Positions 3,128 through 35,720 of a stretch of DNA of 64,000 bases are shown piece by piece. The notes below the pieces were generated by a model, which had not been told where the DNA came from, ran no database searches, and saw nothing but the letters and a program-made list of their open reading frames with translations. A program made the translations under genes and the position numbers. Within the stretch, counting starts at the first letter, position 1. Each line of letters opens with the position of its first letter. Location: assembly GCA_965237415.1 (NCBI GenBank), contig CBDEFM010000002.1, positions 1,728,001-1,792,000 of the forward strand. The letters run 5' to 3'. The DNA is from Alphaproteobacteria bacterium. GTDB taxonomy: Bacteria > Pseudomonadota > Alphaproteobacteria > UBA828.

Positions 3128-3498
3128 CCGGACCATGGTGCGGTGCAGGATGCGGGGCTTCTGCGCCAGGATCGCGCCATGCGTCGATTATTTTCCCGCG
3201 CGCGTATCCGCGCATCTTGCTCCCGCGCACGTAGCCGATCAGTTTGCCGCGCGCGTATCCGCGCGACGCAGTGCACGAACGAGCGAGCCGAGCCGGGCGC
3301 GATAGTCCGCAATTCTCACCAGGGTCGCGCCCCGCGCCTGGGGGGCGCGTCCCTTGATTCCGCGCGCACGACCCTGCGGGCGTGCGCGACATCCCACTCA
3401 TCCCACTTAATCCCGCTTAATCCCGGACAAGAATTTGTGTCTCGCCCGACGTGGAGGGGCAGAACCGGGCCGCGACCGTGGCGGGGGGATCGGCGTCA
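3128..3498 (+). repeat. Dispersed cassette copy A (internally deleted): dyad promoter, short ORF remnant, AATCCC array, conserved tail
   Basis: CCGGACCATGGTGCGG 3128-3143; ATG 3179 region closely resembles the reverse complement of about 35430-35540; ATCCCACTC-ATCCCACTTA-ATCCCGCTTA-ATCCCGG 3391-3426; tail alignable to copies B and D. Confidence 0.85.
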
Positions 3499-5502
3499 GG
3501 ACTGACGGCGGCGGCGATTGCGGCGGCGGGCAGCCGATGGCGCTGCCGTCTCTGCATCGGGCAGCGTGACGTGCTGCGGCAGATGGACGTACGCCGCCGT
3601 GCCGTGGGGAATCGCCATGGCATCGACGAAGTGACGCTGGAACGCGGGCTCGACGGCGGTCTCTACTTTCTCGATGGCACGCACCACGGTCTCGATCTCG
3701 TCGCGGGCCGCGCAATCGAGCAGGGCGATCAGCGCGCCCGTGCCCGCGGCGTTGCCCGCAGCAGACACCTTGTCGAGCGGGCAATCCGGGATCATGCCGA
3801 GGACCATGGCGTAGAGCGGGTCGATATGGCTGCCGAAGGCGCCGGTCAGCACGATCCGGTCGACCGTCGCGATCTCGAAGCGGTCCATGAGCAGCCTGGC
3901 GCCGGCCATGAGCGCCGCCTTGGCGAGCTGGATGGCGCGCACGTCGTTCTGATGGACGGAGATCGCAGGCTCGCCGGGGTAGAGCAGATAGCGGAAGGTC
4001 CGCCCCTCCTCCACGATACGCGCGGTGCGTGCCTGGGCACTGCCGGCGATCGTTCCGTCGGCGAGCAGGATGCCGGCGAGGTACATCTCGGCCAGCGCCT
4101 CGATGATCCCCGAGCCGCAGATGCCGGTGACGCCGGTGGCGGCGGTGGCCGCGGCGAACCCCTCCTCGTCGGACCAGAGGTCGCAACCTATCACCCTGAC
4201 CCTGGCCTCCAGCGTGTCCCGGTCGATACGCACCCGCTCGATCGCGCCGGGTGCCGCGCGCTGGCCGGCTTCGATCTGCGCGCCCTCGAAGGCCGGGCCG
4301 GTGGGCGACGACGCGGCCAGCAGCCGCTCCCTGTTGCCGAGCACGATCTCGGCATTGGTGCCGACATCGACGATCAACACCGTCTCCTCGGCCCGGTGCG
4401 GGGCTTCGGACAGAACGACGCCCGCCGCGTCGGCCCCCACGTGGCCGGCGACGCAGGGCAGCACGTAGACCCGCGCGCCGGCGTTGATATCGAGGTCGAT
4501 GTCGCCAGCCCTCAGCGTCAGCCCGTCCGACCGCGCGAGCGCGAAGGGGGCACCGCCCAGCTCGGTCGGGTCGATGCCGAGCAACAGGTGGTGCATGATC
4601 GGATTGCCGACGAAGGTCGCGTTCAGGATGTCGCCCCGCTCTGCGCCCGCCTCGTCCGCGACCTCGCCGATCAGCGCGTTTATCGCGCCACGCACGGCCT
4701 CGGTGAGCTCGGCCTCGCCGCCGGGGTTCATCATCACGTAGGAGACGCGGCTCATGAGGTCCTCGCCAAAGCGGATCTGAGGATTCATGCGCCCGGCGGA
4801 GGCCACGACCTCACCGCTCGAAAGCTCCGCCAGGTGGCAGGCGATGGTGGTCGAGCCGATGTCGAAGGCGGCGCCGAAGGCCCGGTCGCGGAAGCCGGGC
4901 CAGACGGCGACGATGCGCGTAGCCCCATGGACGGCGACCGTTACCGACCACTCGCCATCGCGAAGCGCGCGCTGGAGGCCTTGCAGGACGTGCAGGTCGC
5001 AGGCGAGATCGCTGAGCTCCCATTGGTCGCTGAGCGCATCGGCGAGGCGCTCGAAGTCGCCGCGCGGATTGTGCATGTCGGGCTCGGCGACCTCGACATA
5101 GTGCAGTCGGACGGCGGGATCGATGGTGAAGTCGCGCGCTTCGGCCCGCTTGCGCACGACCTGCTTGTGGACCTGGCTCTCGGGCGGCACGTCGATGACG
5201 AGGTCGCCCTGGATGAGCGCCGAGCAGCCCAGCCGGCGGCCCTCGGCGAGGGTGCGGCGGGAGGCATAGCGCGCCTCCTTCTCACCTGGCGGGCTCAGAT
5301 GGTCTGGCGCGCTCTCGATCCCGAACTTGGCGAAGTGGCCCGTGCCCGCCTCGACCTGACAGCGGCCGCAGAGGCCCCGGCCCCCGCACACCGAATCGAG
5401 ATCGACGCCGATGGAGCGGGCGGCATCGAGAACCGACGTGCCAATCGCGAACCGCCCGCGCTTGCCGGACGGGGTGAAGACGACGAACGCGGGTTCGGTC
5501 AT
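3496..5502 (-). CDS. ASKHA-domain reductive activator of corrinoid proteins (RACE/RamA-like) with N-terminal 2Fe-2S ferredoxin
   Basis: CGGRGLCGRC 2Fe-2S motif, DIGSTT, DVGTNAE, GPAFEG, GICGSG, GAFGS, GNAAG. Confidence 0.9.
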   Translation of the reverse strand: MTEPAFVVFTPSGKRGRFAIGTSVLDAARSIGVDLDSVCGGRGLCGRCQVEAGTGHFAKFGIESAPDHLSPPGEKEARYASRRTLAEGRRLGCSALIQGDLVIDVPPESQVHKQVVRKRAEARDFTIDPAVRLHYVEVAEPDMHNPRGDFERLADALSDQWELSDLACDLHVLQGLQRALRDGEWSVTVAVHGATRIVAVWPGFRDRAFGAAFDIGSTTIACHLAELSSGEVVASAGRMNPQIRFGEDLMSRVSYVMMNPGGEAELTEAVRGAINALIGEVADEAGAERGDILNATFVGNPIMHHLLLGIDPTELGGAPFALARSDGLTLRAGDIDLDINAGARVYVLPCVAGHVGADAAGVVLSEAPHRAEETVLIVDVGTNAEIVLGNRERLLAASSPTGPAFEGAQIEAGQRAAPGAIERVRIDRDTLEARVRVIGCDLWSDEEGFAAATAATGVTGICGSGIIEALAEMYLAGILLADGTIAGSAQARTARIVEEGRTFRYLLYPGEPAISVHQNDVRAIQLAKAALMAGARLLMDRFEIATVDRIVLTGAFGSHIDPLYAMVLGMIPDCPLDKVSAAGNAAGTGALIALLDCAARDEIETVVRAIEKVETAVEPAFQRHFVDAMAIPHGTAAYVHLPQHVTLPDAETAAPSAARRRNRRRRQS

Positions 5503-5506
5503 GCCG

Positions 5507-6430
5507 TCACGCGCTGACGGCGGCGCCCTCCCGCCGGCGCCGGCGCCCCTCGCGCCGGCCGCGCCTGCCCTCGCCGCCCTCGCCCACCGGCTCGCGGAAG
5601 CGGGTGAGCCAGCGCGCGCAGTCGGGATCGTTGCCGTTCATCATGTCGGCGGCCATGACGGCGGCGATCTCCGCCTCGTGCAGCGGGTTCATGATGGCGG
5701 ATGTCAGACCCGAGCGCGCCGCCATACTGAGGAACGCCGCGTTCACGCTCGGCCGGTTGGGCAGCCCGAAGCCAACGTTCGACGCGCCGCAGGTCGAGTT
5801 CACGCCGAGCTCCTCCTTGAGCCGGCGCATGATGGCGAAGGCCTGCACGCCCGCCGTGTTGATCGCACCGATCGGCATGACCAGCGGATCGACCACCACG
5901 TCCTCCTTGGGGATGCCGTGGTCCATGGCGCGTTCGACGATCTTCCTGGCGATCCCGAAGCGGACGTCCGGGTCTTCCGAGATGCCGGTCTCGTCATTGG
6001 AGATGGCGACGACGGCGCAGCCGTACTTCTTCACCAGCGGCAGCACGGATTCCAGCCGTTCCTCCTCGGCGGTGACCGAGTTGAGCAGCGGCTTGCCTTG
6101 ATAGACCGCGAGCCCGGCCTCGAGGGCCGCCACGATCGAGCTGTCGATGGAGAGCGGCAGGTCCACCAGCGACTGCACGAGCTGGATGCAATCGGCGAGG
6201 ATTTTGGGCTCGTCGGCGAGCGGCACGCCCGCGTTGACATCGAGCATGTGCGCGCCGGCCGCGACCTGTGCCAGCGTGTCCCTTTCCACCCGCGAATAGT
6301 CGCCCGCCGCCATCTCGGCCATCAGCAGCTTGCGGCCGGTGGGATTGATCCGCTCCCCGATGATGCAGAAGGGCTCGTCGAAGCCGATCACCACCTCCTT
6401 CGTGGCGGAACTGACGACGGTGCGGGTCAT
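5507..6430 (-). CDS. Methyltetrahydrofolate:corrinoid methyltransferase (pterin-binding domain)
   Basis: IIGERINPTGRK, LDVNAG, LSIDSS, GASNVGFGLP motifs; start overlaps upstream stop. Confidence 0.88.
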   Translation of the reverse strand: MTRTVVSSATKEVVIGFDEPFCIIGERINPTGRKLLMAEMAAGDYSRVERDTLAQVAAGAHMLDVNAGVPLADEPKILADCIQLVQSLVDLPLSIDSSIVAALEAGLAVYQGKPLLNSVTAEEERLESVLPLVKKYGCAVVAISNDETGISEDPDVRFGIARKIVERAMDHGIPKEDVVVDPLVMPIGAINTAGVQAFAIMRRLKEELGVNSTCGASNVGFGLPNRPSVNAAFLSMAARSGLTSAIMNPLHEAEIAAVMAADMMNGNDPDCARWLTRFREPVGEGGEGRRGRREGRRRRREGAAVSA

Positions 6431-7113
6431 GGCGCCTCTCGGTTCTCGCCGGCGGCGGCGGCGGCCTCGATGAAGTCCGCCAGCTCGCCATAGCCGACAT
6501 GACGATGGACATAGTTGAGCCCCAACCGTTCGGCCGCCACGCGGGCCTTGGCTTCGAGCGCCGCGTCGCGGACCTGGGAGATGTAGACGACGTTCGTGTA
6601 GTTGCCGAAATAGTCGTCCCGCAGCTCGGGCCAGCGGTCGAGGCCTAAGCCCTCGATGATCAGCCGGTCGAAGTGGCGCACCATGTAGTCGGTCAGGAAG
6701 AACTGGGTCGGGTCGTCGTCGGTGATGGCGGCGAACGCGTCCTGCCCGGTGTAGAAGGCGTAGCAGTGCGGCCCCTCGATGCGCTCCACACCCTCTTCCT
6801 CGATCACCTTGTCGAGCAGGCCGCCGGTGCCGCAATCGCCGTAGGCCACGAAGATGGCGCGATAGTCGCCCTTATTGGCCTGGATCTTCGCGCGCACCGC
6901 CTCCGGGATCAGGTGCGGCCGGTTATGCAGCTTGGCGGGCAGGCAGGTGATGTCGATGTGTTCGAAGCCATTGGCCGCGCGGAAGTCGACGATCTCGCGC
7001 GCCAAGGCCCCGCAGGCGATGACGAGGGCACGGGCCGGGCCGGCACTCGCGAATGCGGCCTCGTCGTCGACCGAGAGGTCGGCGTGCTCGGGCGGCGCCA
7101 TCCGGGCTGTCAT
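6427..7113 (-). CDS. DUF1638 domain protein (corrinoid methyltransferase-associated)
   Basis: IACGAL, LHNRP, YGDCGTGG, GPHCY, YFGNY motifs and gene context. Confidence 0.8.
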   Translation of the reverse strand: MTARMAPPEHADLSVDDEAAFASAGPARALVIACGALAREIVDFRAANGFEHIDITCLPAKLHNRPHLIPEAVRAKIQANKGDYRAIFVAYGDCGTGGLLDKVIEEEGVERIEGPHCYAFYTGQDAFAAITDDDPTQFFLTDYMVRHFDRLIIEGLGLDRWPELRDDYFGNYTNVVYISQVRDAALEAKARVAAERLGLNYVHRHVGYGELADFIEAAAAAGENREAP

Positions 7114-7122
7114 AGGCAGGGC

Positions 7123-7833
<711 letters not shown>

Positions 7834-8071
7834 CGGTCCCCGTCCTGTCCCGCTCGTGCCTGCGCTGGATACCGAGAGAAGCGTGCGCTCGCCCCCGGCA
7901 CAGCCCGTCTTCCTGGGTCTCGGCTCAACGCCCGAACCCACTTGTCTATTCAATTACAGGCGCGTCTCAAGACTGTTCCAGACTCGACGCCGGCTTGCCG
8001 GTTCACGACAAAGCGTCCGCTGTCGCCAGGCACGGCTGTCGGTCGCGCTTCGTCGCGGGTGGGAAGACGCG

Positions 8072-9085: not shown

Positions 9086-9316
9086 CGCATCGCCGCCGGT
9101 CAGGCGTCTCCCTGCAACGTCGAGCTCGGCGCAAACGCTATTCTCACATGCCGTCGCCCATTCTCTCCGCCGTGGACAACAAGACTACGACAAGTGAAGT
9201 CCGACCCCCAAGTCCGATCGGCCCGGACGCCAGTCGATCGACTCAGCCCCGGCCGTGGTCGCCAAGGGGCCGTTCTTGGCACCCGACTTCGTGGCCAGCC
9301 AGCTCGGACCCTGCTC

Positions 9317-10444
9317 TCATCGGCGCAGGCGGCCGGGGCCGAGGCGCTCTGCGGTGATACCGTGCGCGGCGACCGCCTCGGGCAGTGGCTCGCCGGTGAC
9401 GAGCGCTGCGGTGACCGCGCCAAGCGCCGGCGCGGTCATGATGCCGGCGCCCCCCTGGCCCGCCAGCCAGAAGAAGCCCTCGGCCGCGATGTCGAAGCCC
9501 GCCACCGGCTGCCGGTCGCGCACGAAGCTCCTGAGACCCGCCCACTTGTTGCGTATGTGGCGGATGTCGAGGGTCGTCGCCTGCATGATGCGGTCGGCGC
9601 CGATGGCGATGTCGAGCTCCTCGGGATAGACGTCGCAGGGTTCCGACGGGGTTTCGTCGGCGGGCGAGCCCAGAATCCGGCCGGCATCGGGCTTGAGGTA
9701 GAAGGCATCGTCGATGTCGTGCACCATCGGCCAGTCGTCGACGCCGCCGTCCGCCGGCCCGTCGAAGATGAACGCGGTCCGGCGTTTCGGTTCAAGACCG
9801 ATGGGCGCGAGGCCCGCAAGTGCAGCCACGGCGTCGCACCAGGCGCCGGCGGCGTTGACCACGACCGGCGCGCAGTAGGCGCCGGCCGGCGTCTCCGCGT
9901 GCCAGAGTCCGCGTGCACGCGCGAGCGCCGTCACCCCCGCCTCCGTCATCAACGTCCCGCCGCGCGCGCGCAGGCCCCGCAGAAAACCTTGATGCAGGGC
10001 AGCGACGTCGATCTCCTCCGCCTCCGGCTCCAGAACCGCGCCGGCGACATAGTCCTCACGCAACGGTACGGGCTGCTCCAGAGCCTGGCTGGCGTCGAGG
10101 CGCGCCAGAGTCGGCACACGTTGCCGGTTCTCCTCGTAGAAGCGATCGAGCATGTCGATCTGATCGGCGTGGCCGACATACAGTACCTGGCGCGGGCTGA
10201 GCAGCGGCGAGGCCGCGAAGCCGGACGGCGGGTCGGTGAGGAATGAGCGGCCCGTCACGGCCAGCCCCTTCGTCAGCGGGCCGCCATAGGTTTCCATGTA
10301 CATGGCGGCGGAGCGCCCGGTCGAGTGGTAGCCCGGCACGTCCTCCTGCTCGAGCACGACGACGCGCCCCCGCTCCGCAAGCCAGAATGCCGCCGAGGCG
10401 CCCGCCATGCCGGCGCCGACGACCAGGAAGTCGCAGCGTTCCAT
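9317..10444 (-). CDS. FAD-dependent oxidoreductase (D-amino acid oxidase/D-arginine dehydrogenase-like)
   Basis: VVGAGMAGAS, GYHSTGRSAA, NAAGAW, WAGLRSF, GQGGAGI; TAGAAT ends 7 nt before the ATG, suggesting a leaderless start. Confidence 0.85.
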   Translation of the reverse strand: MERCDFLVVGAGMAGASAAFWLAERGRVVVLEQEDVPGYHSTGRSAAMYMETYGGPLTKGLAVTGRSFLTDPPSGFAASPLLSPRQVLYVGHADQIDMLDRFYEENRQRVPTLARLDASQALEQPVPLREDYVAGAVLEPEAEEIDVAALHQGFLRGLRARGGTLMTEAGVTALARARGLWHAETPAGAYCAPVVVNAAGAWCDAVAALAGLAPIGLEPKRRTAFIFDGPADGGVDDWPMVHDIDDAFYLKPDAGRILGSPADETPSEPCDVYPEELDIAIGADRIMQATTLDIRHIRNKWAGLRSFVRDRQPVAGFDIAAEGFFWLAGQGGAGIMTAPALGAVTAALVTGEPLPEAVAAHGITAERLGPGRLRR

Positions 10445-10577
10445 CGCGCGCATTCTATGCGGCGCGCCCCCCGGCCGAAACGGCGCGGCTCCGCGTTTGC
10501 GGGTACGCCACCGCCGCTCTCGGCAAGCCGCGCCTGGGCCGCTAGTCTGGCGCCACCGAAGAGAGCGGGAGCGGACC

Positions 10578-12855: not shown

Positions 12856-12866
12856 GCGTCCGAGCC

Positions 12867-12917
12867 CCGCACCATGGTGCGGTGGAGGGCGCAGGCTCGG
12901 CGCGCCAGCATCGCGTC
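12867..12917 (+). promoter_or_regulatory. Putative activator-dependent leaderless promoter: perfect 16-bp palindrome at -51..-36, CAGCAT at -12..-7
   Basis: CCGCACCATGGTGCGG 12867-12882; CAGCAT 12906-12911; ATG 12918; same spacing in three other copies. Confidence 0.65.
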
Positions 12918-13645
12918 ATGCAAAACGAAACCCAAAAGACAACGACAGCCGCGACGTTCGGGCGTTCCTCGATCGCGCGGCTGCCGCCGGAGCTTCGCGA
13001 GGCCGTCGATGCGGCCATCGCAGACGGCGCCACCATCGACGAAATCGCGGATCTCATCCGGGGCGAGGGCGGCGCGTGCTCGCGCTCGGCCGTCGGCCGC
13101 TACACCAAGAACGTCCGCGACCTGATTCGCCAACAGCAGGAGGCCGACCGCGCCAACGAGGCGTGGGTGCGCGCGCTCGGCGAGCGCGCCGAGGGTCGGG
13201 CCGGGCTCATCCTGATCGAGACCCTGCGGACTTTGACGCTCTCCACCCTGGCCGAACTCAGCAAGCGCGAGACGCCGCCGACGCCGGAAGAGCTTGGCCG
13301 TCTCTCGCTGGTCCTCAAGCGCATCGAGGGCACGGACAAGCTCCGCCTCCAGCGGGAGCAGGCGGCGGCGAAGGCAGCCAGGGCCGCGCCCGGCGCGGGG
13401 CAGGCACCGGGGCAGGCACCGCCCAGGAAGGGCCTCTCGCCCGAGGCCGTCGCCGCCATCCGCGAGGTCGTCGAGGGGAGGCCCCGCCCGCCTGGGCGGG
13501 CCGTCTCATCGGCGCCGGTCGACCCGTGGAATCCTTCGGAATCCCACTTAATCCCACTTAAACCCGGCGAATCCCGCACAGGAATTGAGTTTGGCCCGAG
13601 TGGGATGGCGGAGCCGGACAGCGACAGTCGCGAAATTGCGGGCTA
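12867..13645 (+). repeat. Dispersed cassette copy B (carries intact DUF3486-like ORF)
   Basis: Dyad leader; five roughly 10-bp AATCCC-type units 13529-13578; tail to 13645 alignable to copies A and D. Confidence 0.85.
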
Positions 13646-13697
13646 CGCGCCCACGTCGACGATGGCCACCACTGGGCCGCCGCCCTGCGGGCCCTGA
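12918..13697 (+). CDS. DUF3486 / phage Mu gp27-like protein (small-terminase-like), orphan
   Basis: [29 protein letters not shown]...SRSAVGRY...LIETLRTL...[12 protein letters not shown] resembles the Mu gp27 family; 3' end overlaps the convergent gene by 55 bp. Confidence 0.72.
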
Positions 13698-16031: not shown

Positions 16032-16063
16032 CGTTCGCTCCTCCCTCAGACTCAGGCGCCTGC

Positions 16064-17509: not shown

Positions 17510-17638
17510 CTGCGGTCTCACCCCCGGCGGATAGCACTGCGGTTGGCCACGGATCGGAACGGTCGAGCGTTTAGCATATCGCCCGGCTGCAGGCGACCGG
17601 CCGCGGAGGAGGAAAGGCGGTCTCCCCTCTCTACTCCC

Positions 17639-17943
17639 CCGGACCATGGTGCGATGTGCAGTGCCAGGCTCCTGCGTCAGGCTCACGCCATGGAGCGCCA
17701 AACTGGGTTGGTCGCGGTGGGCACGTTGAGCGAGCGGGCGGGAAACGATCTCGCGCTCAACACCCTGCGGGCGTGCGCGACCCGGGTCCGGGCCGCGGCC
17801 GCCAGCAACAACTGTCTGCCGGGCCATCCAGTGGGAGGCTTCGCCGTGAACGCTCCGTCGGGCCGCCGGCACCGGTCCGGCGGAACCCCACTCATCCCGC
17901 CTATCCCACTTAATCCCGCTGAATCCCGCCTCAAATTAACTCA
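17639..17943 (+). repeat. Dispersed cassette copy C (short/degenerate)
   Basis: CCGGACCATGGTGCGA 17639-17654, CAGGCT 17678-17683, ATG 17690; 20-bp ACCCTGCGGGCGTGCGCGAC shared exactly with copy A; ATCCC array about 17883-17930. Confidence 0.82.
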
Positions 17944-18111
17944 AAGGCTTATCCCCTTGCTTCCGGTTCGTCTAGATATTGACCTACGCAATGCAACGGT
18001 TTCAGCCGGCGGACTCAGAAAATCACAGCGCAGCCCGTGCCTTATCCGGGCCTTCCAGCAGTGGGAAGGCACGCAACATCATGCGCTCCCGGAGCCAAGG
18101 GGATAAGCCTT
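17944..18111. mobile_element. MITE, 168 bp, IS1595-family-like ends
   Basis: Perfect 16-bp TIRs AAGGCTTATCCCCTTG (17944-17959) / CAAGGGGATAAGCCTT (18096-18111), extendable to 21/23; flanked by 8-bp direct repeat TTAACTCA (17936-17943, 18112-18119). Confidence 0.85.
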
Positions 18112-18167
18112 TTAACTCATTCCCGCATCGAGCGGGATGCCGGTGGAGCGCCCGCGTGCTGAGGAAC

Positions 18168-20264
18168 GTGGACGGCGTGCGCGCCCATCTCGGCGCGGCA
18201 TGGGCCGCCGAGCGTCAGCGTGTGTTCCTCTGGGTGCCGGTCCTCTTTGGCGCGGGCGGCGGCCTCTATCTCACGCTACCGGTGGAGCCGATCGGATGGA
18301 TCGCGCCGGCCGCCGCGGGGCTCTTCGCGCTCGCGGCGCTGCTGCTGCGCCGACACACTGCTCCGGCTCTCGGACTCGCGGCGCTGGCACTGCTCGCCGC
18401 CGGGGTCGCCGCCGCCGACTGGCGCACCGACCGCGTCAGCGCGCCGGTGCTCGCCGGCCCCATCGGCCCGACCGACGTTTCCGGGCGTGTGGTCTGGGTC
18501 GGTGCCGGCGACGGCCCTCAGCGTTACCTCCTGGATCGCGTGAGCATCGGGGGCCTGGCAGCGGCGGAGACGCCCGCGCGCGTGCGGATCAGCGCTCGCA
18601 GCACGGTCCCGGACGACGTGGGCGTGCCGGGATCGTGGCTCACGGCGCGCGCTTCGCTCAGGCCGCCGCCGGCACCGGCCGAACCCGGGGCGTGGGACTT
18701 CGCGCGGCAGGCGTGGTTCCAGCGGATCGGCGCCGTCGGCTTCGTTTACGGTGCGCCGACGCCGATGGCCGCGCCTGAGGGTGAAGGCGGCGGCTTGCTC
18801 TCGCTGCTGTCGCAAGCCCGCCACTGGGTCTCCGCGCGGATTCTCGCTCACACCGCACCGTCGGCCGGGCCGTTCGCGACGGCGCTACTCACCGGCGATC
18901 GGAGTTCCATCGAGAAGAAGACGCTGAGCGCGATGCGGGATTCCGGCCTCGCCCATCTTCTGGCGATCTCGGGGCTTCATGTCGGCCTCGTCGCCGGGTT
19001 CATCTTCTTCGCCGCACGCGGCCTGCTGGCGCTGATCGAGCCGGTCGCGCTCAGGATGCCGATCAAAAAATGGGCGGCGGGATGCGCACTGCTCGGCGCT
19101 GCGGCCTATCTGCTGCTATCCGGCATGAGCGTGCCGACACAGCGGGCGTTCCTCATGGTTTCTGTCGTGCTGCTCGCGATCATGCTGGACCGCGCGAGCC
19201 TTTCAATGCGCCTGATCGCCTGGGCGGCGCTCCTGGTGCTTGCGATCGCGCCCGAGAGCATGCTCGGGCCGAGCTTCCAGATGTCCTTCGCTGCGGCGAC
19301 TGCGCTGATCGCGACCTACGAAGCGGCGCGTGGCACCTTCGCCCGCCTGGCGGCGCGCGGCGGTCTCGCGCTCCGCCCCCTCGTCTACGCGGCAGGCGTG
19401 TTGCTCACCTCCCTGGTCGCTGGCATCGCCACCGGCCCGTTCGCGGTCTACCACTTCAACCGTATCGCCGACTACGGCCTCCTCGCCAATCTGGGCGCGG
19501 TGCCGATCACCGGTTTCTGGATCATGCCCTGGGGGCTGGTTGCGCTTCTGCTCATGCCGTTCGGGCTCGAAGGGATAGCGCTCGCTCCGATGGGGTGGGG
19601 AATCGACGCGGTGGTGTGGATCGCCCGCCAGGTGGCCGCGCAGCCGGGGGCGGTCACGCTCGTACCGGCGATGCCGGCGGCGGCCCTGCTTGCGATCGCG
19701 GTGGGCGGCCTGTGGCTCTGCCTCTGGCGAAGCCGCTGGCGCTTTCTCGGCATCGCAGTCATTGGCTGCGGGATGGTGATCGCGGGCCTGGAACGCCGGC
19801 CAGACATCTTGGTCGACGGAGACGCAAAGGTGATGGCGGTGCGCGGCGAGGACGGGGAGCTTTGGCTCTCCACCCGTCAACGGGGGCGCTTCGTGAGCAA
19901 CGTCTGGCTCAGGCGGGACGGGCAGGCGGAGACACCGACCTGGCCGCGAGACGGCGAAGGCGCGCCTGCTGCCGGCCTTCGCTGCGATACGCTCGGGTGC
20001 ATTCAGCGGCGCGGGGAGAGAACCATCGCGTTCGTGCGCGATCCGCGCGCTTTCGACGAAGACTGCAGCCAAGCCGATCTCGTCGTCAGCACCGTCCCGG
20101 CCTGGAACCTTTGCCCCGGTCCCGAGACGGTGGTGGACCGATTCGACCTTTGGCGCGGCGGCAGCCACGCGATATGGCTCGCGCCGGACGGGGTCCGTGT
20201 GGAAAGCGTGGCTGAGTCGCGCGGGAAGCGGCCGTGGGTCGCCCGCCGCGGTTCGCCTCAGTAG
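18168..20264 (+). CDS. comEC: ComEC/Rec2 competence membrane protein (start uncertain)
   Basis: [26 protein letters not shown] motifs; multiple transmembrane segments; located between gltX and lexA. Confidence 0.9.
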
Positions 20265-26293: not shown

Positions 26294-26350
26294 GGTGCCC
26301 CGCCCCGTCGGCCGCTCGGTTGATCGGATGCGTGGAGCGGCGGTGCGCGC

Positions 26351-26566: not shown

Positions 26567-26714
26567 GCCACACCCCTCCCCGTCCGGCTCTCTCCGCCGG
26601 CCCTCAGCAAGCGCCCGGAGTGTGGAGACGATGGCCGCGCGAGTCAACGTTGCGAGGAGCGCTCCCGGCGGTGACGGTCGGCGTGTTGCAGCGCGGCGGA
26701 ACCGGACTGCAGCG

Positions 26715-30482: not shown

Positions 30483-31435
30483 GGGCTGCCGTCTGCGCCG
30501 GCATCGGGCGCGGGCAACCCCAGGCCCTCCAGCGCGTCGCGCATCAGCTCCAACGCCATTCGCAGGAGGCGGGCGGAGGCCTCCGCGGTCATGAAGGCTG
30601 CGTGGGGCGTCAGCGTCGCGTTCTCCAACGCCGCCAGGGGATGGTCCCCGTCGATCGGCTCGTCGGCGAAGACATCGAGACCCGCTGCCCGAATCGTGCC
30701 GCCCTTCAGCGCCTCGACCAGGGCCGGCTCGTCGATGATTGCGCCGCGCGCGGTGTTGATCAGCATCGCGCCCCGGCGCATCAGGGCGAGGCGGCGCGCG
30801 TCGATGATGCCCCTGGTCTCGTCGTTGAGGCCGAGATGGAGCGACACCACATTGGCCTCGCCGAGCAGTGCGTCGAGGGTCTCGGCCGGGGTACAGGGGA
30901 GGTCGGACGGCACGCCGCTCCGGTTCCAGGCAATGACGTTCATGCCGATCCCGTTGCCGAGGCGCACCATCTCGCGGCCGACGCCGCCGGTGCCGACCAC
31001 CCCGAGGGTCTTGCCCGCGAACTCCACGCCATCGAGCGTGCGCCACGAGCCGGCGCGCAGCGCGCGGTCCATCCGCGCGGTCTGGCGGCCGCAGTCGAAC
31101 ATCAGCGCGAGCGCGTGCTCGGCAACCGTGACGTCGCCATAGCCCTTGATGGTGCGCACCTCGATGCCGAGCCGCTCCGCCGCCGCCACGTCGATGTAGC
31201 TCGACGCGCCGGTGCCCATGAAAACGATCACCTTGAGGGCGCGGCAGGCGGCAAGCACCTCCTCCGGCATGTAGGTGTGGTCGTTGATGACCCCGACCGC
31301 ATCGCCGACGTAGGCCGCCGCGTCGTCGCCCGGCACGTCGTCGACGGTCATGGCGAGGTCGGGAACGATCGCTCGGAGCTCGTCGTCGTAAAGCTCGGCC
31401 AGAAATGACGGACAGTCGAAGAAGATCGCGCGCAC
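30479..31435 (-). CDS. D-isomer-specific 2-hydroxyacid dehydrogenase family protein
   Basis: VAEHAL, GVVGTGGVG, INTARG, AGLDVF, TPHAA. Confidence 0.9.
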   Translation of the reverse strand: MRAIFFDCPSFLAELYDDELRAIVPDLAMTVDDVPGDDAAAYVGDAVGVINDHTYMPEEVLAACRALKVIVFMGTGASSYIDVAAAERLGIEVRTIKGYGDVTVAEHALALMFDCGRQTARMDRALRAGSWRTLDGVEFAGKTLGVVGTGGVGREMVRLGNGIGMNVIAWNRSGVPSDLPCTPAETLDALLGEANVVSLHLGLNDETRGIIDARRLALMRRGAMLINTARGAIIDEPALVEALKGGTIRAAGLDVFADEPIDGDHPLAALENATLTPHAAFMTAEASARLLRMALELMRDALEGLGLPAPDAGADGSP

Positions 31436-31512
31436 CGTTTGCCTCCGGATTGGCTATGGGTTACCGATTGTAGCAGGCGCCGCCGCCGGCGCGCCGGAAC
31501 CTTCAGCGCGGG

Positions 31513-32526
31513 TCACGAGCCGCCGTCCGCACCGCGGGAGGCGGCGGCCGTGCGGCGCCGGGCGCCGGTGTTGACCAGCCAGAGGCCGACGACCATGCAG
31601 GCAAGAGCCGCCCATACCCAGAGGCCGAGCGTCTCGTCGAAGATCAGCAGCGCCCAGAAGATGCCGGCTGCGACCACCAGATAGTTGAACTGTGCGAAGA
31701 AGACCGCGCCGGCGCGCCGTGTGACCTCCTGGAAACAATAGAAGGTGACGCAGTGGATCGCCGCAGCCCAGGCCATGCCGGCGATACCTTGCCATCCCGC
31801 GTCCGCGAAGAGATAGGGGCCGTCCGCCACCAGCATCACCGGCAGCATGACGGCGGCGGCGGCGAGCAGAATGCCGCAGGCGAGCGCGAGCGATTGCGTC
31901 TGCGGCGGCCTGTAGGCGGCGGCGACAACATTTGAGCCGGCGGCCGCGACCGCGGCCACCAGCGCCACCAGCATCCACACCCAGGCGCCGGCATCGGGCA
32001 GGCCCTGATCGGGCAGCACGATCAGCAGCACGCCGCCCGCGCCGAGAGCCAATCCCGCGAGGCTCAGCGCCTCGAAGCGCTCCAGCCGCATGGCAAAGGA
32101 CATCAGATACGTGAGCCCCGGCACCAGGGTGAGCACAAGGGTGACAACGCCGGCCGGAAGCTCGCGCGCGGCAATGGCGGTCGCCAGCACCGGCAGCATC
32201 ACCGCCAGCAAGGCGAGGCGGAGGTATTGCAGGAGGTGCGCGCGGCTCACCGGCGGCAGCGTGCCGGCGACGGCGCCCACGATCAGCAGCGCGAGGCCGG
32301 CGAAGAGCGCGATCCAGAAGGTATAGGCGAAGACCGGGAAGGAAACGCCGGCGGCGAGCTTGTTGGCCGAGAAGATGCCGCCATACGAAATGCCGCCGAG
32401 GAGCAGCAGCAATGTCGGGACGATGAGCGCGCGCCCGCGCAGGCGCTCCCCGCCGGCCGCGTCAGTTGCCGGGGCGCCGCCGCTGGCCGTTTTCTCTTCT
32501 CGCGGTGCCGCCGGCATCGCCGTCAC
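31513..32526 (-). CDS. DMT/EamA family transporter
   Basis: About 10 hydrophobic helices in two EamA-like repeats. Confidence 0.82.
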   Translation of the reverse strand: MTAMPAAPREEKTASGGAPATDAAGGERLRGRALIVPTLLLLLGGISYGGIFSANKLAAGVSFPVFAYTFWIALFAGLALLIVGAVAGTLPPVSRAHLLQYLRLALLAVMLPVLATAIAARELPAGVVTLVLTLVPGLTYLMSFAMRLERFEALSLAGLALGAGGVLLIVLPDQGLPDAGAWVWMLVALVAAVAAAGSNVVAAAYRPPQTQSLALACGILLAAAAVMLPVMLVADGPYLFADAGWQGIAGMAWAAAIHCVTFYCFQEVTRRAGAVFFAQFNYLVVAAGIFWALLIFDETLGLWVWAALACMVVGLWLVNTGARRRTAAASRGADGGS

Positions 32527-32601
32527 GGTAGCGGCGGGATGTGGGCGAGGTCCAGTGCCGGCGGCGCAATGCCGCCGACGTTCCGCTGCGTCAGCGGGAC
32601 T

Positions 32602-33747
32602 CTACAAACACGCCTCCAGCAGCTTCCGCGTGTTCTCCTTAGTCATGGGCACCGGGTTTCCGCCGGCCGTCGGATCGCCCAGCGCCATGACGGTGAGGTC
32701 GTCCAGGCGGTCTTGCGTCACTCCCATCGCGCCGAGAGTCTTGGGGATGCCCAAGGTCTCGCGCAACTCCAACACCCGGTCGTAGAAGGCCGTGTAGCCG
32801 CCCTTGAGGCCGAGATAGGCGGCGGCATGCGTGAGGCGCTCTTCCACCGCCGGCCGGTTCATGTCGAGCACGTAGGGCATGACGCAGGCGTTCGTCGTGC
32901 CGTGGTGGGTGTCAAACACCGCACCCACCGGGTGGCTCAGAGCATGGATCGCGCCGAGGCCCTTCTGGAATGCCGTGGCCCCCATGGAGGCAGCGGCCAT
33001 CATGTGGGCGCGCGCCTCCAGATCGTTGCCGTCGGCGTAGGCGCGGCAGAGGTTCTCATGCACGAGGCGCATCCCCTCCAGCGCGATGCCCTGCCCCATG
33101 GGGTGATAGAAGGGCGAACAGTAGGCCTCCAGGCAGTGGGCCAGGGCGTCCATCCCCGTGCCTGCCGTGATCGGCTTCGGCATGCCGACGGTGAGCTCGG
33201 GGTCGGCGATCACCACCGTCGGCAGCACCTTGGGGTGGAAGATGATCTTCTTCACATGCGTGGCGGAGTTGGTGATGACGCTGGCGCGGCCGACCTCCGA
33301 CCCGGTGCCGGCGGTGGTGGGGACGGCGACCGTGGGCGCGATGGCGTCCGCATCGGCGCGGGTCCACCAGTCGCCCACGTCCTCGAAGTCCCAGACCGGG
33401 CGGGTCTGGCCGGCCATGAAGGCAACCATCTTGCCGAGGTCGAGCGCCGACCCGCCGCCGAAGGCAACGACGCCGTCATGATCGCCCGCCCGGTAGGCGG
33501 CAACGCCGGCATCGAGGTTCTTCTCGGTGGGATTGGAGTCGACCTCGGCGAAGACGGCGCGGCCGAGCCCGCCCGCCTCCAGGATGTCGAGCGCGGCCTG
33601 CGTCATCGGTAGCTGGGCCAAGCCGCGGTCGGTCACGAGCAGGGGCCGCTGAATGTCGGCGGCGGCGCACGCGACGGGTAGTTCCGCGACGCGGCCCGCA
33701 CCGAAGCGGATGGCGGTGGGATAGGACCAGTTGGCGGTGAGCGTCAT
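32602..33747 (-). CDS. Iron-containing alcohol dehydrogenase
   Basis: GGGSALD, PTTAGTGSE, DALAHCLE, HALSH, HHG. Confidence 0.92.
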   Translation of the reverse strand: MTLTANWSYPTAIRFGAGRVAELPVACAAADIQRPLLVTDRGLAQLPMTQAALDILEAGGLGRAVFAEVDSNPTEKNLDAGVAAYRAGDHDGVVAFGGGSALDLGKMVAFMAGQTRPVWDFEDVGDWWTRADADAIAPTVAVPTTAGTGSEVGRASVITNSATHVKKIIFHPKVLPTVVIADPELTVGMPKPITAGTGMDALAHCLEAYCSPFYHPMGQGIALEGMRLVHENLCRAYADGNDLEARAHMMAAASMGATAFQKGLGAIHALSHPVGAVFDTHHGTTNACVMPYVLDMNRPAVEERLTHAAAYLGLKGGYTAFYDRVLELRETLGIPKTLGAMGVTQDRLDDLTVMALGDPTAGGNPVPMTKENTRKLLEACL

Positions 33748-33887
33748 GGTGCGACCTTCCTGACGTGAAGGGGCTCGGGGCTAGACGTACACGGATCATC
33801 AGGCGTCCGACGAGGAACCTCCATACAGCGCCCGGGCGACGACGGCGAGGGGGAGTATGAGCCTGAGCGGACCCGAGTACGGTCCGC

Positions 33888-34229
33888 CTATTGGCCTATG
33901 GTTATCGGCTGGCGCCTTCTGCCCCAGCGGCCCGGCGGGCCGTCGAAGACCCCGGCGGTCTGTGTGCCGCATGCGGTACAGGCTCCTCGGCCATCGAGCC
34001 GCCAGTCGGAGAGCTTGTACCAGTCGCGGCCGATGGTGCGCGTGCCGCACACGTGGCAGTAGGTCGATTGCCGGCCGAGGTCGTGGACATTGCCGGTATA
34101 GGCGTAGCGCACGCCGTTCCGCAGCGCGACGCGCCGCGCCATCGCCAGCGTGTCTGCCGGGGTGCGCGGCTTGTCGAGCATCCGGTAGTCGGGATGAAAG
34201 GCGCTGAAGTGCATCGGCACGTGCGCGCC
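33888..34229 (-). pseudogene. amrS: C-terminal fragment of an AmmeMemoRadiSam-type radical SAM enzyme
   Basis: VPMHFSAFHPDYRM...YAYTGNVHD...TYCHVCG...CTACG; N-terminal radical SAM CxxxCxxC core absent, replaced by cassette copy D. Confidence 0.75.
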
Positions 34230-34492
34230 CTCTAACCCGCACGTCTCGCCACGGTCGCGGCCTGGCTCCCCGTCCCACCTCGGGCAGAATTCAATCTTGA
34301 GGCGGGATTCGGTGGGATTAAGTGGGATAAGTGGGATTCCGTGAGACAAGGTCGCCCGTGCCTGAGTCGCGCAAGCCCGAGTCGCCCGCGCCTGAAAGGT
34401 CGCGGGCGCGCCAGATAGGGTCGTGCACGCGGAATAGGATCCCGCAAGCACCCCCGTCGCGCTCGCCGCGGCCCGTTCGCTCTTGCGCTGTA

Positions 34493-34508
34493 TGGCACGG
34501 CAATTGCG
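34493..34508 (+). promoter_or_regulatory. Sigma-54 (-24/-12) consensus match
   Basis: TGGCACGGCAATTGCG with GG-N10-GC spacing. Confidence 0.45.
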
Positions 34509-34604
34509 CCGGCGGCGCGCAGACCGCGGCCGCGGTGAGACATCCGGGCCCCACGATGAGCCGGGCGCGCGTGTTCGGTTGCGGCGGATGCGGAGCCCCC
34601 GGCC

Positions 34605-35489
34605 TCACCCCGGTCCGCTCCATTCCGCAGGGCAGAAGGGAGGGTCGGTCGGCCAGAGTCGGCCTTCCGCCTCGCGCCGTCTCAGCTCGGCATCGCGCGC
34701 CCCGTGCGCGTCCCATGCATCGTCTGCTTGCGCGCGTGGACGCGCGACGCGCACCCCACGCGCGTCCGCATCCTGCGCCCCGTCGGCGGTAGGCGGATCG
34801 GGCGCCGGCTTCGGCAGGGTGACGGGAGAGTCCTCGGCAGAGGCCGCGGCCCACCCGGATGCCGGCGGTGGCGGCTCTGTGCGCCCAGGGAAGACGTGCC
34901 CCTCGAGAGCCCGGCGGACGGTCTCGACCCGTTCGGCATGCGTCATACTGGCCGCGCGCGCGGCCGGTCCGGCGTGCGCGGCGGCGGCATCGGCCGCCGC
35001 CTGCTCGCGCTCGATGCGGAGCTTGTCCGCGCTTTCGATACGGTAGAGCGCGAGGGCGAGGCGGGCGAGGTCCTCCGTCGGCACAGGCTCCGTGCGCTGG
35101 CTGAGCTCGGCCATCGTGCGGAGCGCCAGCGTTCGCAGGGTCTCGATCGCGATGAGGGCGCTAAGCCCCTCGGCGCGGGGGTCGCGCGTGCGCTCCCATT
35201 CCTCGGCAAAGCGAACGGTCTCGCGCTGCAGGCAGATCAGGCCGTCCATGCGCTCGGCCCAGCGGCCCTCGGCGGGTCGCGCCCGCGCGCAGCGTCGTGC
35301 GCGCGGGATCAAATCCGAACTCTCGCCGTCGCCCGCGCGGACGCGCGCCACGATCTCGTCCATGGTGGCGCCGCCCTCGATCGCTGCGGCGACGGCGTCC
35401 TGGATTGCGGCCGGCAGCGGCTCGTCCGGCGAGCGCTCGCTCTCGCACTGCGTCGCGCGGATACGCGCGCGGGAAGATGATCGACGCAT
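34605..35489 (-). CDS. DUF3486 / Mu gp27-like protein, diverged paralog of 12918..13697
   Basis: LPAAIQDAVAAAIEGGATMDEI...RAEG...IETLRTLAL...AELS...LARLALALYRIESADKLRIEREQAAA aligns with the copy B protein. Confidence 0.65.
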   Translation of the reverse strand: MRRSSSRARIRATQCESERSPDEPLPAAIQDAVAAAIEGGATMDEIVARVRAGDGESSDLIPRARRCARARPAEGRWAERMDGLICLQRETVRFAEEWERTRDPRAEGLSALIAIETLRTLALRTMAELSQRTEPVPTEDLARLALALYRIESADKLRIEREQAAADAAAAHAGPAARAASMTHAERVETVRRALEGHVFPGRTEPPPPASGWAAASAEDSPVTLPKPAPDPPTADGAQDADARGVRVARPRAQADDAWDAHGARDAELRRREAEGRLWPTDPPFCPAEWSGPG

Positions 35490-35720
35490 GGCGCAAGTCT
35501 GACGCGGACGCTGCGCACCATGCACCGCACCATGGTCCGGAGTCGCCCGCGCCCGAAGGGTCGGGGGCACAGCATAAAGAGTCGCGCGACCCTGAGTCGC
35601 ACGCGCCCGAAGGGTCGCGGGCGCGGAACCAAGGTCGTGCGCGCGGCGAATTAGGGTACGCGCGCGTCACATAATGTCGTGCGCGCGGAACGAGACAGTG
35701 GCAGGAATTCCGAGTTAGGG

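What the first reader, a model, noticed from the sequence alone, without database searches (positions are those of the whole stretch)
3128..35700. Dispersed four-copy cassette family: dyad promoter, Mu gp27-like ORF and AATCCC repeat array, with no phage or transposase
Seen: four related intergenic units in 64 kb (A 3128-3498 +, B 12867-13645 +, C 17639-17943 +, D 34232-35700 -). All share the order 16-bp dyad, hexamer, ATG, variable body, roughly 10-bp AATCCC array. B and D encode DUF3486-like proteins. A looks like an internally deleted relative of D (shared CGCCATGCGTCGATnATnTTCCCGCGCGCGTATCCGCGC) and C is a short remnant. Established: DUF3486 is the family of phage Mu gp27, annotated as a probable small terminase subunit. 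Inference: this is an amplified phage-derived module that I cannot match to a described element. Candidate roles are a non-autonomous mobile repeat, a set of dispersed packaging cassettes, or a phage-triggered decoy terminase defence.
Basis: partly seen in the sequence, partly recalled or inferred. Interest (0 to 1): 0.92.

Follow-up and report, generated by a model that had tools for sequence, protein, structure and literature searches.

The report
Scattered phage promoter-and-packaging-signal cassettes
The four units belong to a family of about 70 small inserted DNA cassettes per genome, each carrying a Mu-phage-type late promoter and a repeat array that looks like phage Mu's packaging signal, so they could mark many start points for packing host DNA into phage-like capsids.

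Summary
The four units exist as described, but the family is much larger. This genome holds 77 leaders, and 67 are paired with an ATCCC array. The family is confined to one uncultured alphaproteobacterial genus.

All four window units are insertions. Relatives have only 2-33 bp at the A, B and C sites, and D's ends coincide with homology breakpoints.

- **Leader.** It also precedes Mu-type portal, protease-scaffold-capsid and other phage genes elsewhere in the genome. Its 16-bp dyad lies 43.5 bp before the ATG in 62 of 69 copies. This matches the geometry of the Mor-dependent Mu promoter. A Mor-family gene is present.
- **Protein.** The gp27-like small-terminase gene occurs only on these cassettes. 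It co-occurs with the conserved portal across the genus.
- **Array.** The 10-bp-phased array aligns with phased GGGAT repeats at the left end of phage Mu and of Mu-like viral contigs.
- **Ends.** Many cassettes end in a terminal repeat shared with a MITE family that duplicates TA.

Best reading: a phage small-terminase, packaging-signal and late-promoter module amplified as non-autonomous mobile DNA. A packaging role is inferred, not shown.

The parts
3110..3495 (+). Unit A: short D-type derivative. Left end is truncated; it lies between an MttB-family gene and a RACo gene.
   Evidence: Seven relatives have only 13-33 bp at this site.
3128..3143 (+). A: 16-bp dyad CCGGACCATGGTGCGG
3167..3172 (+). 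A: CAGGAT hexamer at -12..-7 from the ATG at 3179-3181
3302..3330 (+). A: internal copy of the MITE-type terminal repeat, in left orientation
   Evidence: hit at C2:1731302, - strand
3362..3390 (+). A: REP-like hairpin module
3391..3424 (+). A: ATCCC array of 4 units at 9-10 bp, followed by an AT-rich patch at 3427-3441 and a degenerate tail running to 3495
12865..13643 (+). Unit B: intact B-type cassette. Its last C plus the TA at 13644-13645 forms the stop codon of the convergent AtzD/TrzD-family gene.
   Evidence: Nine relatives have 2-32 bp at this site.
12867..12882 (+). B: dyad CCGCACCATGGTGCGG. The CAGCAT hexamer is at 12906-12911.
12918..13697 (+). B: gp27-like small-terminase ORF. The conserved core runs to about 13530, and the frame reads on through the array.
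13530..13577 (+). B: array of 5 units at 10 bp. An AT-rich patch follows at 13578-13593.
13594..13643 (+). B: tail ending in a degenerate MITE-type terminal repeat
17604..18148 (+). Unit C: short cassette, shared only with the nearest relative G043. It is interrupted by a foreign MITE.
17639..17654 (+). C: dyad. The CAGGCT hexamer is at 17678-17683 and the ATG at 17690.
17884..17927 (+). C: array
34233..35716 (-). Unit D: full-length D-type cassette with both terminal repeats (left about 35690-35716, right about 34235-34263) and flanking TA.
   Evidence: Homology with relatives breaks at about 34231 and 35715.
35525..35540 (-). D: dyad. The hexamer is at 35496-35501 and the ATG at 35489.
34605..35489 (-). 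D: degenerate gp27-like ORF. A REP-like hairpin at 35276-35304 replaces the recognition helix.
34304..34338 (-). D: array

Best explanation
**Shown**
- The units are members of a genus-restricted family of about 67-77 small cassettes per genome.
- All four window units are insertions compared with related genomes.
- Each cassette starts with a leader that also heads Mu-type portal, protease-scaffold-capsid and other phage genes in this genome.
- Each cassette ends with ATCCC repeats phased at 10 bp, followed by an AT-rich patch.
- Only four copies (B-type) carry an intact Mu gp27-family small-terminase gene. Six (D-type) carry a damaged one. The rest are internal deletions.
- These ten are the only gp27 genes in the genome.
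- The genus also keeps single, well-conserved copies of a Mu-type large terminase, portal, major capsid protein and a Mor-family activator.

**Inferred**
- The leader is a Mor/C-type activated promoter. A 16-bp dyad sits 43.5 bp before the ATG, a CAnnAT -10 hexamer is present, and there is no -35 element. The transcript would therefore be leaderless or nearly so.
- The array is the recognition site of the gp27-type small terminase, that is, a pac-type site. It matches the phased GGGAT repeats in the left end of phage Mu and of Mu-like viral contigs.
- The module (late promoter, small-terminase gene, pac-like array) was amplified as non-autonomous mobile DNA. Part of the spread used terminal repeats shared with a TA-duplicating MITE family, moved by a transposase supplied in trans that I did not find.
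- When the activator is made, all copies would fire, the intact copies would supply small terminase, and the arrays would offer about 70 packaging entry points.
For: **Census**
- 77 leaders; 67 are paired with an array and 10 are not. Cassette length is 171-1313 bp.
- The array pattern occurs in 14 of 20 other genomes of the genus and 0 of 23 in other genera of the family.

**Insertions**
- A. B. C. D.

**Leader on phage genes**
- Portal_Mu at 292 bits, a cement protein and a capsid protein.
- Protease, scaffold, major head, large terminase, Gam and late activator by PHROGs.
- Pfam gives Mor at 26.5 bits (cut-off 24.9), GemA, and an S24 repressor.
- The dyad upstream of the portal is kept in all 9 relatives examined.

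**Promoter geometry**
- The ATG lies 43.5 bp from the dyad centre in 62 of 69 leaders that have an ATG nearby.
- A at -11 and T at -7 each occur in 62 of 69.
- For Mu, Mor binds a 16-bp element centred at -43.5 (PMC4390567, abstract seen in the listing). Mu late promoters have -10 hexamers but no typical -35 hexamers (PMC2582627, same listing).

**Small-terminase gene**
- All 10 PF11985 matches in the genome lie in cassettes.
- PF11985 is present in 17 of 20 genus genomes. It is absent from G033, G039 and G042. Two of these lack the portal entirely and G039 has only a 41% partial match.
- Median dN/dS is 0.43 over 378 pairs.
- In true prophages of relatives, the gp27 gene sits directly before the large terminase.

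**Conserved head and packaging genes in the genus**
- Major capsid: 16 of 20. Large terminase: 16 of 20. Mor-like: 15 of 20.

**Array**
- Copies at 62-68% protein identity keep the dyad and the phased ATCCC.
- G024 has 31 arrays with different spacers but the same ATCCC phase.
- Mu AF083977.1 positions 53-67 read ATCCCATCAGATCCC on the - strand.
- In IMG/VR, 11 of 80 hits lie within 150 bp of a contig end, against 1.63 expected.
- The 6 non-tandem end hits all point inward as in Mu. Four of these six have repressor, GemA/Mor or Mu F genes within 2 kb; L190 has only a Mu F-like gene, and L226 gave no Pfam hit.
- Cassettes, those contigs and Mu attL align over four phased GGGA units.

**Mobility**
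- 28 of 77 copies have the right terminal repeat, and 17 of those are followed by TA. 7 of 77 have the left repeat.
- 33 repeat-bounded elements: 17 have TA on both sides, and the two flanking bases match in 18.
Against: - No experiment or usable transcript data exist. The transcription start is unknown, and laying contigs of RNA runs could not show expression.
- No binding of gp27-type proteins to GGGAT repeats is documented in anything I read. The mapped position of Mu pac is recalled, not read.
- True Mu-like prophages of relatives have no array at the junction between the small- and large-terminase genes. None was found in the stretches I fetched either.
- Only 4 of 77 copies have both terminal repeats.
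- B-type copies share homology only from the dyad to about 25 bp past the array, so how they spread is unresolved.
- No transposase flanked by these repeats was found: 0 of 11 DDE_3 genes here and 0 of 30 sampled in the genus.
- No sheath, Mu F or intact MuA gene was found, so it is unknown whether particles form.
- A, B and C are shared at most with the closest relative. This looks like recent selfish spread rather than conserved function.
- The IMG/VR pattern count overall is near what chance would give. This is my own estimate and was not computed.
- In L180 the array sits beside Mor, not beside a repressor.
Confidence: 0.55

Rival explanations
1. The family is a purely selfish MITE or mobile-insertion-cassette family. 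A TA-targeting transposon end captured a fragment of a decaying Mu-like prophage. Leader and array persist only because they lie close to the ends or are needed for transposition. They have no packaging or regulatory role today.
For: - The terminal repeats are shared with 33 repeat-bounded MITEs that have TA flanks.
- The insertions are recent and not conserved.
- Most copies are internal deletions.
- D-type genes are damaged.
- Other MITEs insert into the AT-rich patch.
Against: - Only 28 of 77 copies have the right repeat and 7 of 77 the left.
- B-type units share no repeat-bounded homology.
- The ATCCC phase is kept while spacers drift, across species and across copies at 62-68% protein identity.
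- dN/dS is below 1.
- The gp27 gene co-occurs with the conserved portal.
- The array matches the Mu left end.
Confidence: 0.2
2. The system is domesticated and resembles a gene transfer agent. The genus keeps a Mu-derived head-and-packaging gene set under Mor-type control. Spread of the small-terminase/pac cassettes is selected because it seeds many packaging start sites, so host DNA from the whole chromosome is packaged.
For: - Portal, large terminase, capsid and Mor-like genes are single-copy at 77-98% identity in 15-16 of 20 genus genomes. The large-terminase and portal genes lie adjacent in several relatives, and the gene upstream of the large terminase is shared across them.
- No transposase A/B genes lie between the repressor and gam.
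- The late genes are split over at least four loci, each with the dyad.
- The small-terminase gene is found only on cassettes.
- Median spacing between leaders on the large contig is 34 kb.
Against: - No tail genes were found, though I searched only two families plus the neighbouring genes.
- Cassette positions are not conserved between species.
- Copy number ranges from 0 to about 100 among genomes that keep the head genes.
- Orientation relative to replication is only weakly biased, 44 against 28.
- No particle data exist.
Confidence: 0.15
3. The cassettes are an anti-phage decoy or act like a satellite. They respond to the Mor/C activator of an infecting Mu-like phage. They then either divert its terminase to host arrays, which would be a defence, or get themselves packaged for horizontal spread.
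For: - True Mu-like prophages in relatives carry perfect GGACCATGGTCC dyads, so the cassette promoters could answer to them.
- Intact cassette small-terminase genes exist alongside phage ones.
Against: - There are no PADLOC hits.
- No toxin or effector is present.
- The resident conserved activator and head genes make an internal regulon the simpler reading.
- Nothing tested here bears on phage resistance.
Confidence: 0.05
4. The cassettes encode a family of small RNAs or peptides. The leader drives a short transcript, and the repeat region acts as RNA.
For: - A conserved ATG follows the promoter.
- Short upstream ORFs overlap the start codons of the large terminase and the portal.
Against: - There is no Rfam match.
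- The leader hairpin is not kept in distant copies (read by eye).
- The bodies are highly variable.
- A 10-bp phase fits a DNA-binding protein better than RNA.
Confidence: 0.03

Closest known systems
Phage Mu packaging signal region (left end, attL) with gp27, the probable small terminase
   Same: - The protein family is the same, PF11985.
- Phased GGGAT/ATCCC units at 10 bp align between the cassettes and Mu positions 32-67.
- Mu packages by headful from attL (PMC2837660, passages read).
   Different: - In Mu the repeats lie about 12 kb from gene 27, next to the transposase-binding end, and occur once per genome.
- Here they lie at the 3' end of the small-terminase gene, in about 70 copies.
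- In this genome the small-terminase gene is not next to the large terminase.
Mu middle and late promoters activated by Mor and C
   Same: - A 16-bp dyad, a -10-like hexamer and no -35 element.
- The dyad centre lies 43.5 bp before the ATG, against -43.5 from the start site in Pm (PMC4390567 abstract).
- A Mor-family gene is present.
   Different: - The dyad sequence differs.
- The start site is unmapped; if it coincides with the ATG, the transcripts are leaderless.
- About 70 promoter copies sit on repeats rather than 4-5 in a phage.
MITEs and mobile insertion cassettes of the TA-duplicating (IS630/Tc1-mariner-like) kind
   Same: - Terminal inverted repeats of about 29 bp.
- TA duplication in a YTAR target.
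- No transposase inside, size 170-1500 bp, many deletion derivatives, empty sites in relatives.
   Different: - Only a minority of copies carry the repeats.
- The conserved parts are an internal promoter and a repeat array.
- No matching autonomous element was found.
- That IS630 targets CTAG and duplicates TA is recalled, not read.
Gene transfer agents such as RcGTA
   Same: Phage-derived head and packaging genes are inherited vertically, split over several loci and under a common regulator.
   Different: - The ancestry is Mu-type.
- No tail genes were found.
- The RcGTA small terminase was described in connection with packaging of any DNA (PMC6854486, abstract seen in the listing). Here a sequence-specific pac-like array is multiplied instead.
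Pseudo-pac sites in generalized transduction (P22)
   Same: Host-genome sequences that resemble pac start packaging of host DNA (PMC10996546, abstract seen in the listing).
   Different: Those sites are chance look-alikes. Here the sites sit on an amplified mobile cassette with its own promoter and small-terminase gene.

Membership tests
Phage_Mu_Gp27 (PF11985, formerly DUF3486) | Score above the Pfam gathering cut-off of 28 bits | tested here: met
   B scores 85.3 bits and D scores 29.4 bits, which is marginal. PHROG 426 'terminase small subunit' matches at 4.9e-28 and 1e-06.
Phage_Mu_Gp27 (PF11985, formerly DUF3486) | Intact N-terminal helix-turn-helix with the conserved S-R-S-A..R-Y helix | tested here: met
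   Met for B: residues S55, R56, S57, A58, R61 and Y62 are at least 90% conserved in 53 sequences, and helices are modelled at 18-49. Not met for D-type copies: a REP-like insert or deletion replaces this helix.
Small terminase subunit | Gene lies directly upstream of the large terminase | tested here: not met
   In this genome the large terminase has its own dyad and a host gene upstream. The feature is met in true prophages of relatives, with an ATGA overlap.
Small terminase subunit | Fold and ring oligomer like solved small terminases; binds pac DNA | tested here: inconclusive
   The AlphaFold2 model has pLDDT 77. Foldseek against the PDB gave no match at E<=0.001; small terminases appear only at E about 2.7-3.9. 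Binding cannot be tested with these tools.
Mor/C-activated Mu-type promoter | 16-bp dyad centred at -43.5, a -10 hexamer, no -35, and an activator gene present | tested here: inconclusive
   Distance to the ATG is 43.5 bp in 62 of 69 leaders, and the CAnnAT hexamer is conserved. Mor scores 26.5 bits against a cut-off of 24.9. The transcription start is not known.
TA-duplicating MITE (IS630/Tc1-mariner-like) | Terminal inverted repeats at both ends | tested here: not met
   Both repeats are present in only 4 of 77 copies; 28 have the right repeat and 7 the left. Unit D has both.
TA-duplicating MITE (IS630/Tc1-mariner-like) | 2-bp TA target duplication | tested here: met
   17 of 28 cassette right ends are followed by TA. 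Among 33 repeat-bounded elements, 17 have TA on both sides; the two flanking bases are identical in 18 of 33, and no 3-9 bp duplication was seen in any.
TA-duplicating MITE (IS630/Tc1-mariner-like) | Autonomous partner with the same terminal repeats | tested here: not met
   0 of 11 DDE_3 genes in this genome and 0 of 30 sampled in the genus are flanked by the repeats.
Mu-type transposition | 5-bp target duplication and a MuA transposase | tested here: not met
   0 of 33 elements have a 5-bp duplication. The only Mu-transpos_C match is a fragment in an unrelated island.
Gene transfer agent | Vertically inherited head and packaging genes | tested here: met
   The portal is full-length at 84-96% identity in 15 of 20 genus genomes, plus one broken copy. 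Capsid is found in 16 of 20, large terminase in 16 of 20 and Mor-like in 15 of 20.
Gene transfer agent | Tail genes and particle production | tested here: inconclusive
   There is no match to the sheath family PF04984 or the Mu F family PF04233, and no phage families in the neighbouring genes. Other tail types were not searched, and particle production is not testable here.
Known anti-phage defence systems (PADLOC) | Match to a PADLOC model | tested here: not met
   0 hits for the B and D proteins and for three leader-driven phage proteins.
Rfam RNA families | Match to a curated covariance model | tested here: not met
   No cassette match at gathering scores over the window, nor at E<=0.1 over 17600-18200.

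The most novel reading that the evidence does not exclude
An uncultured alphaproteobacterial genus has domesticated the head and packaging half of a Mu-like phage. It has also turned the phage's small-terminase gene and pac signal into a self-spreading cassette. About 70 activator-controlled packaging entry points are therefore scattered over the chromosome. This would be a gene-transfer-agent-like system that gains genome-wide coverage by multiplying a specific pac site, rather than by losing pac specificity.
Probability: 0.18. Interest if true: 0.85.

Novelty: new variant of a known kind. Interest (0 to 1): 0.62.

Why it matters
**If the arrays are working pac sites.** This would be a new way for a cell or a phage remnant to choose which DNA enters capsids. 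Instead of one pac site per phage, or none as proposed for gene transfer agents, a specific site is copied across the chromosome by a mobile cassette. That bears on how generalized and lateral transduction evolve.

**The Mu question.** The finding also gives a testable candidate for the DNA motif read by the poorly studied Mu gp27 small-terminase family. Phased GGGAT repeats occur in the Mu left end itself.

**If the cassettes are only selfish.** They would still be a clear case of a phage late promoter multiplied about 70-fold. Induction of one activator could then disturb transcription at many host loci.

**Literature.** I found no paper that joins MITEs with small terminase or pac sites (search: none of the 10 listed held the MITE term). 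I found none describing a Mu-derived domesticated packaging system (search: 3 papers, none on this). DUF3486 appears in a single held paper.

Tried and rejected
- **Rfam:** no family matches the cassettes.
- **Structure:** the AlphaFold2 model of the B protein searched with Foldseek against the PDB gave nothing significant.
- **Phage collection:** tblastn of the B protein found only two distant DUF3486 genes and no context of use.
- **Sequencing runs:** only assembled contigs were available. Depth at the array bin is raised about 100-fold in both RNA and DNA libraries. That shows a repeat, not expression; no starts, ends or joined empty forms were reported.
- **Transposase partner:** IS630-type DDE_3 genes were checked and none carries the repeats. 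The single nearby repeat at C1:408726 is a lone end beside an unrelated IS.
- **Cassette tail as the region upstream of the large terminase:** rejected, because the resemblance is not kept in relatives.
- **Cassette terminal repeat as a Mu-type att end:** rejected by the lack of a 5-bp duplication. The resemblance to the first bases of contig L155 stays unexplained.
- **'Repeat X'** (a GC-rich repeat that flanks some B-type copies, 9 core hits): it lies on either side and is not a consistent border.
- **Left ends of true prophages in G032:** the three loci share no upstream homology, and no arrays were found in the stretches fetched.
- **Orientation relative to replication:** 44 against 28, which is weak, and the origin was only guessed from GC skew.
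- **L106 gene cluster as tail genes:** rejected, no phage families.
- **NCBIfam and PADLOC:** no hits.
- **Complex prediction:** not attempted.

Full report
**1. The observation**

Units A-D are present with the described order of parts.
- The dyads are at 3128-3143, 12867-12882, 17639-17654 and, on the - strand, 35525-35540.
- In every unit the A of an ATG lies 43.5 bp from the dyad centre, and a CAnnAT-like hexamer sits at -12..-7.
- Each unit ends with ATCCC repeats spaced 9-10 bp apart.
- B and D encode Phage_Mu_Gp27 (PF11985) proteins: 85.3 and 29.4 bits against a cut-off of 28. Both match PHROG 426 'terminase small subunit'.
- The string that A shares with D is present in both.

**2. Size and range of the family**

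The family is far larger than four copies.
- A first motif scan found 66 leader-array pairs.
- nhmmer profiles found 77 leaders. 67 are followed by an array-plus-tail hit on the same strand within 2 kb, spanning 171-1313 bp. 10 are unpaired.
- The array pattern occurs in 14 of 20 other genomes of the same genus and in 0 of 23 genomes of nine other genera of the family. The backwards-read control gave 0 everywhere.
- Copy numbers range from 0 to about 100.
- The organisms are uncultured MAGs titled 'Alphaproteobacteria bacterium' or 'Rhodospirillales bacterium'.

**3. The units are insertions**

- **A.** Seven relatives have 13-33 bp between the two convergent genes. G029 has a different repeat-bounded MITE at the same CTA(G/A) site.
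- **B.** Nine relatives have 2-32 bp. In the window, the stop codon of the right-hand gene is built from the cassette's last C plus TA.
- **C.** 19 of 20 relatives have about 27-33 bp at the site. Only G043, the closest relative, shares the unit. Here the unit also carries a later 169-bp MITE.
- **D.** Homology with relatives breaks at about 34231 and 35715, exactly at its two terminal repeats.
- In G043 the flanks of A, B and D lie 20-66 kb apart, each next to cassette sequence. This suggests rearrangements between copies.

**4. What the leader is**

Four of the ten unpaired leaders head phage genes:
- a Mu-type portal (PF06074, 292 bits);
- two copies of a protease, scaffold/cement and major-capsid module;
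- an operon of DUF5675 and two PHROG families of unknown function.

Next to that operon lie an S24 repressor, Gam, GemA and a Mor-family activator, with no transposase A/B genes between them. The large terminase has a weaker dyad of its own.

The portal's dyad is kept in all nine relatives examined.

Across the 77 leaders, 69 have an ATG in range. In 62 of these it lies 43.5 bp from the dyad centre, and A-11 and T-7 are each present in 62 of 69.

For phage Mu, a Mor dimer binds a 16-bp element centred at -43.5 (PMC4390567, abstract in the listing). The late promoters have -10 but no typical -35 hexamers (PMC2582627, same listing).

I therefore read the leader as a Mor/C-type promoter whose transcript starts at or near the ATG. 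This is an inference from geometry. No start site was mapped.

At the portal and the large terminase, the leader ATG opens a 17- or 15-codon upstream ORF. Its stop codon overlaps the gene's start codon.

**5. The protein**

- All ten PF11985 matches in this genome lie in cassettes: four B-type, five D-type, and one D-type split by an insertion.
- B-type proteins keep the family's near-invariant S-R-S-A..R-Y helix. The model shows an N-terminal helix-turn-helix, three long helices and a disordered tail.
- In D-type proteins a REP-like hairpin or a deletion replaces that helix. They are probably inactive.
- There are hundreds of close B-type homologues in public assemblies, several per genome.
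- Over 28 intact copies the median dN/dS is 0.43, with a range of 0.14-0.76 across 378 pairs. Two copies with a frameshift or stop were left out.
- PF11985 is present in 17 of 20 genus genomes. It is missing from G033, G039 and G042. G033 and G042 have no portal match, and G039 has only a 41% partial.
- The major capsid protein (16 of 20, 92-98% identity), large terminase (16 of 20) and Mor-like gene (15 of 20) are conserved in the same way.
- In true Mu-like prophages of relatives, the gp27 gene overlaps the start of the large terminase. This supports its role as the small terminase.

**6. The array**

- Copies at only 62-68% protein identity keep both the dyad and a 10-bp-phased ATCCC array. 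The reading frame runs through the array, so one DNA motif is read in three frames. That argues for selection on the DNA.
- G024 has 31 arrays with its own spacer sequences and the same ATCCC phase.
- True prophages of relatives have no array after gp27.
- Phage Mu's left end carries ATCCCATCAGATCCC at 53-67 on the - strand, flanked by weaker units. Mu packages by headful from that end (PMC2837660, passages).
- That pac maps to roughly positions 30-60 is my recollection of older papers that I did not see.
- I scanned IMG/VR for three phased ATCCC units. In the 80 loci examined, 11 hits lay within 150 bp of a contig end, against 1.63 expected. Four of these are plain tandem repeats, and a fifth (L169) was also set aside.
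- The other six all have GGGAT reading inward from the end, as in Mu. Their neighbours are repressors (L155, L186, L207), GemA and Mor (L180), or Mu F (L190). L226 gave no Pfam hit.
- Cassettes, these contigs and Mu attL align over four phased GGGA units.
- This makes 'small-terminase recognition site' the best available reading of the array. It is still only a resemblance.

**7. How the cassettes spread**

- The last 29 bp of many cassettes match 143 places in the genome.
- 33 inverted pairs bound elements of 123-450 bp, 15 of them 264-266 bp long. 17 have TA on both sides and 30 on at least one side. No 3-9 bp duplication occurs in any.
- This is the TA-duplicating MITE pattern and not Mu-type transposition.
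- Only 28 of 77 cassettes have the right repeat, 7 have the left, and 4 have both.
- B-type copies share homology only from the dyad to about 25 bp past the array.
- No transposase flanked by the repeats was found.
- A REP-like hairpin is tied to the family: 72 of its 75 hits lie within 1.5 kb of a leader.
- The spread is therefore only partly explained.

**8. Verdict**

The finding is real and phage-derived. It is best described as a small-terminase, pac-like array and late-promoter module of a Mu-type packaging system, amplified as non-autonomous mobile DNA.

It is a new variant built from known kinds: a MITE or mobile insertion cassette, a Mu late promoter and a Mu pac region. Any role in packaging or gene transfer remains to be tested.

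Noticed in passing
window 2609-2711 (+): Rfam PYLIS_3 (pyrrolysine insertion sequence, mttB) matches at 48.7 bits, above the gathering score of 38. The match lies inside the MttB-family gene at 1508-3109, which has no in-frame stop there.
   Followed up: no
window 17943-18111: A 169-bp MITE with perfect 16-bp terminal inverted repeats sits in the AT-rich patch of unit C. Folding gives z = -4.5. Three other copies at 97-100% identity are in this genome. It is absent from this site in G043.
   Followed up: partly
G000 C2, e.g. 588864-589128 and 1792161-1792425 (just past the window end): A homogeneous MITE family of about 265 bp has 29-bp terminal repeats and TA duplication. It has neither leader nor array. 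15 copies are 264-266 bp long.
   Followed up: partly
window 3362-3390, 17753-17781, 34381-34409, 35276-35304, 35596-35624: A REP-like GC-rich hairpin module is found almost only beside or inside cassettes (72 of 75 hits). It also lies directly upstream of the portal dyad in G000 and G043 but not in 7 other relatives, as if it homes to the dyad edge.
   Followed up: partly
L105 (G000:C2:1216000-1235999) 10400-10500 and 13540-13645: Short upstream ORFs of 15 and 17 codons start at the leader ATG and end overlapping the start codons of the large terminase and the portal. This pattern is conserved in relatives.
   Followed up: partly
L105 12075-13424: A 450-aa ORF rich in GGxGxD-like repeats lies between the large terminase and the portal in G000 and apparently G043. 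In most relatives the two genes are about 145 bp apart.
   Followed up: no
G043:C1 around 2316000-2413000: In the closest relative, the flanks of units A, B and D are separated by 20-66 kb, each next to cassette sequence. This suggests inversions or other rearrangements between cassette copies.
   Followed up: no
G000:C2:24622 and C2:1133186: The leader and the start of the protease-scaffold-capsid module occur twice with identical sequence over at least 400 bp. Only one full major-capsid match was reported.
   Followed up: no
L119 (G000:C2:3583000-3600999): This is an island with two tyrosine integrases, a DruA (Druantia) gene, an IS66 fragment and a fragment of an rve/Mu-transpos_C transposase.
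   Followed up: no
downstream of B-type copies at G000:C2:2013400 and 3852000; upstream of C2:1398611: A further GC-rich repeat ('Repeat X', at least 9 core copies) lies on either side of B-type cassettes, both here and in distant relatives.
   Followed up: partly
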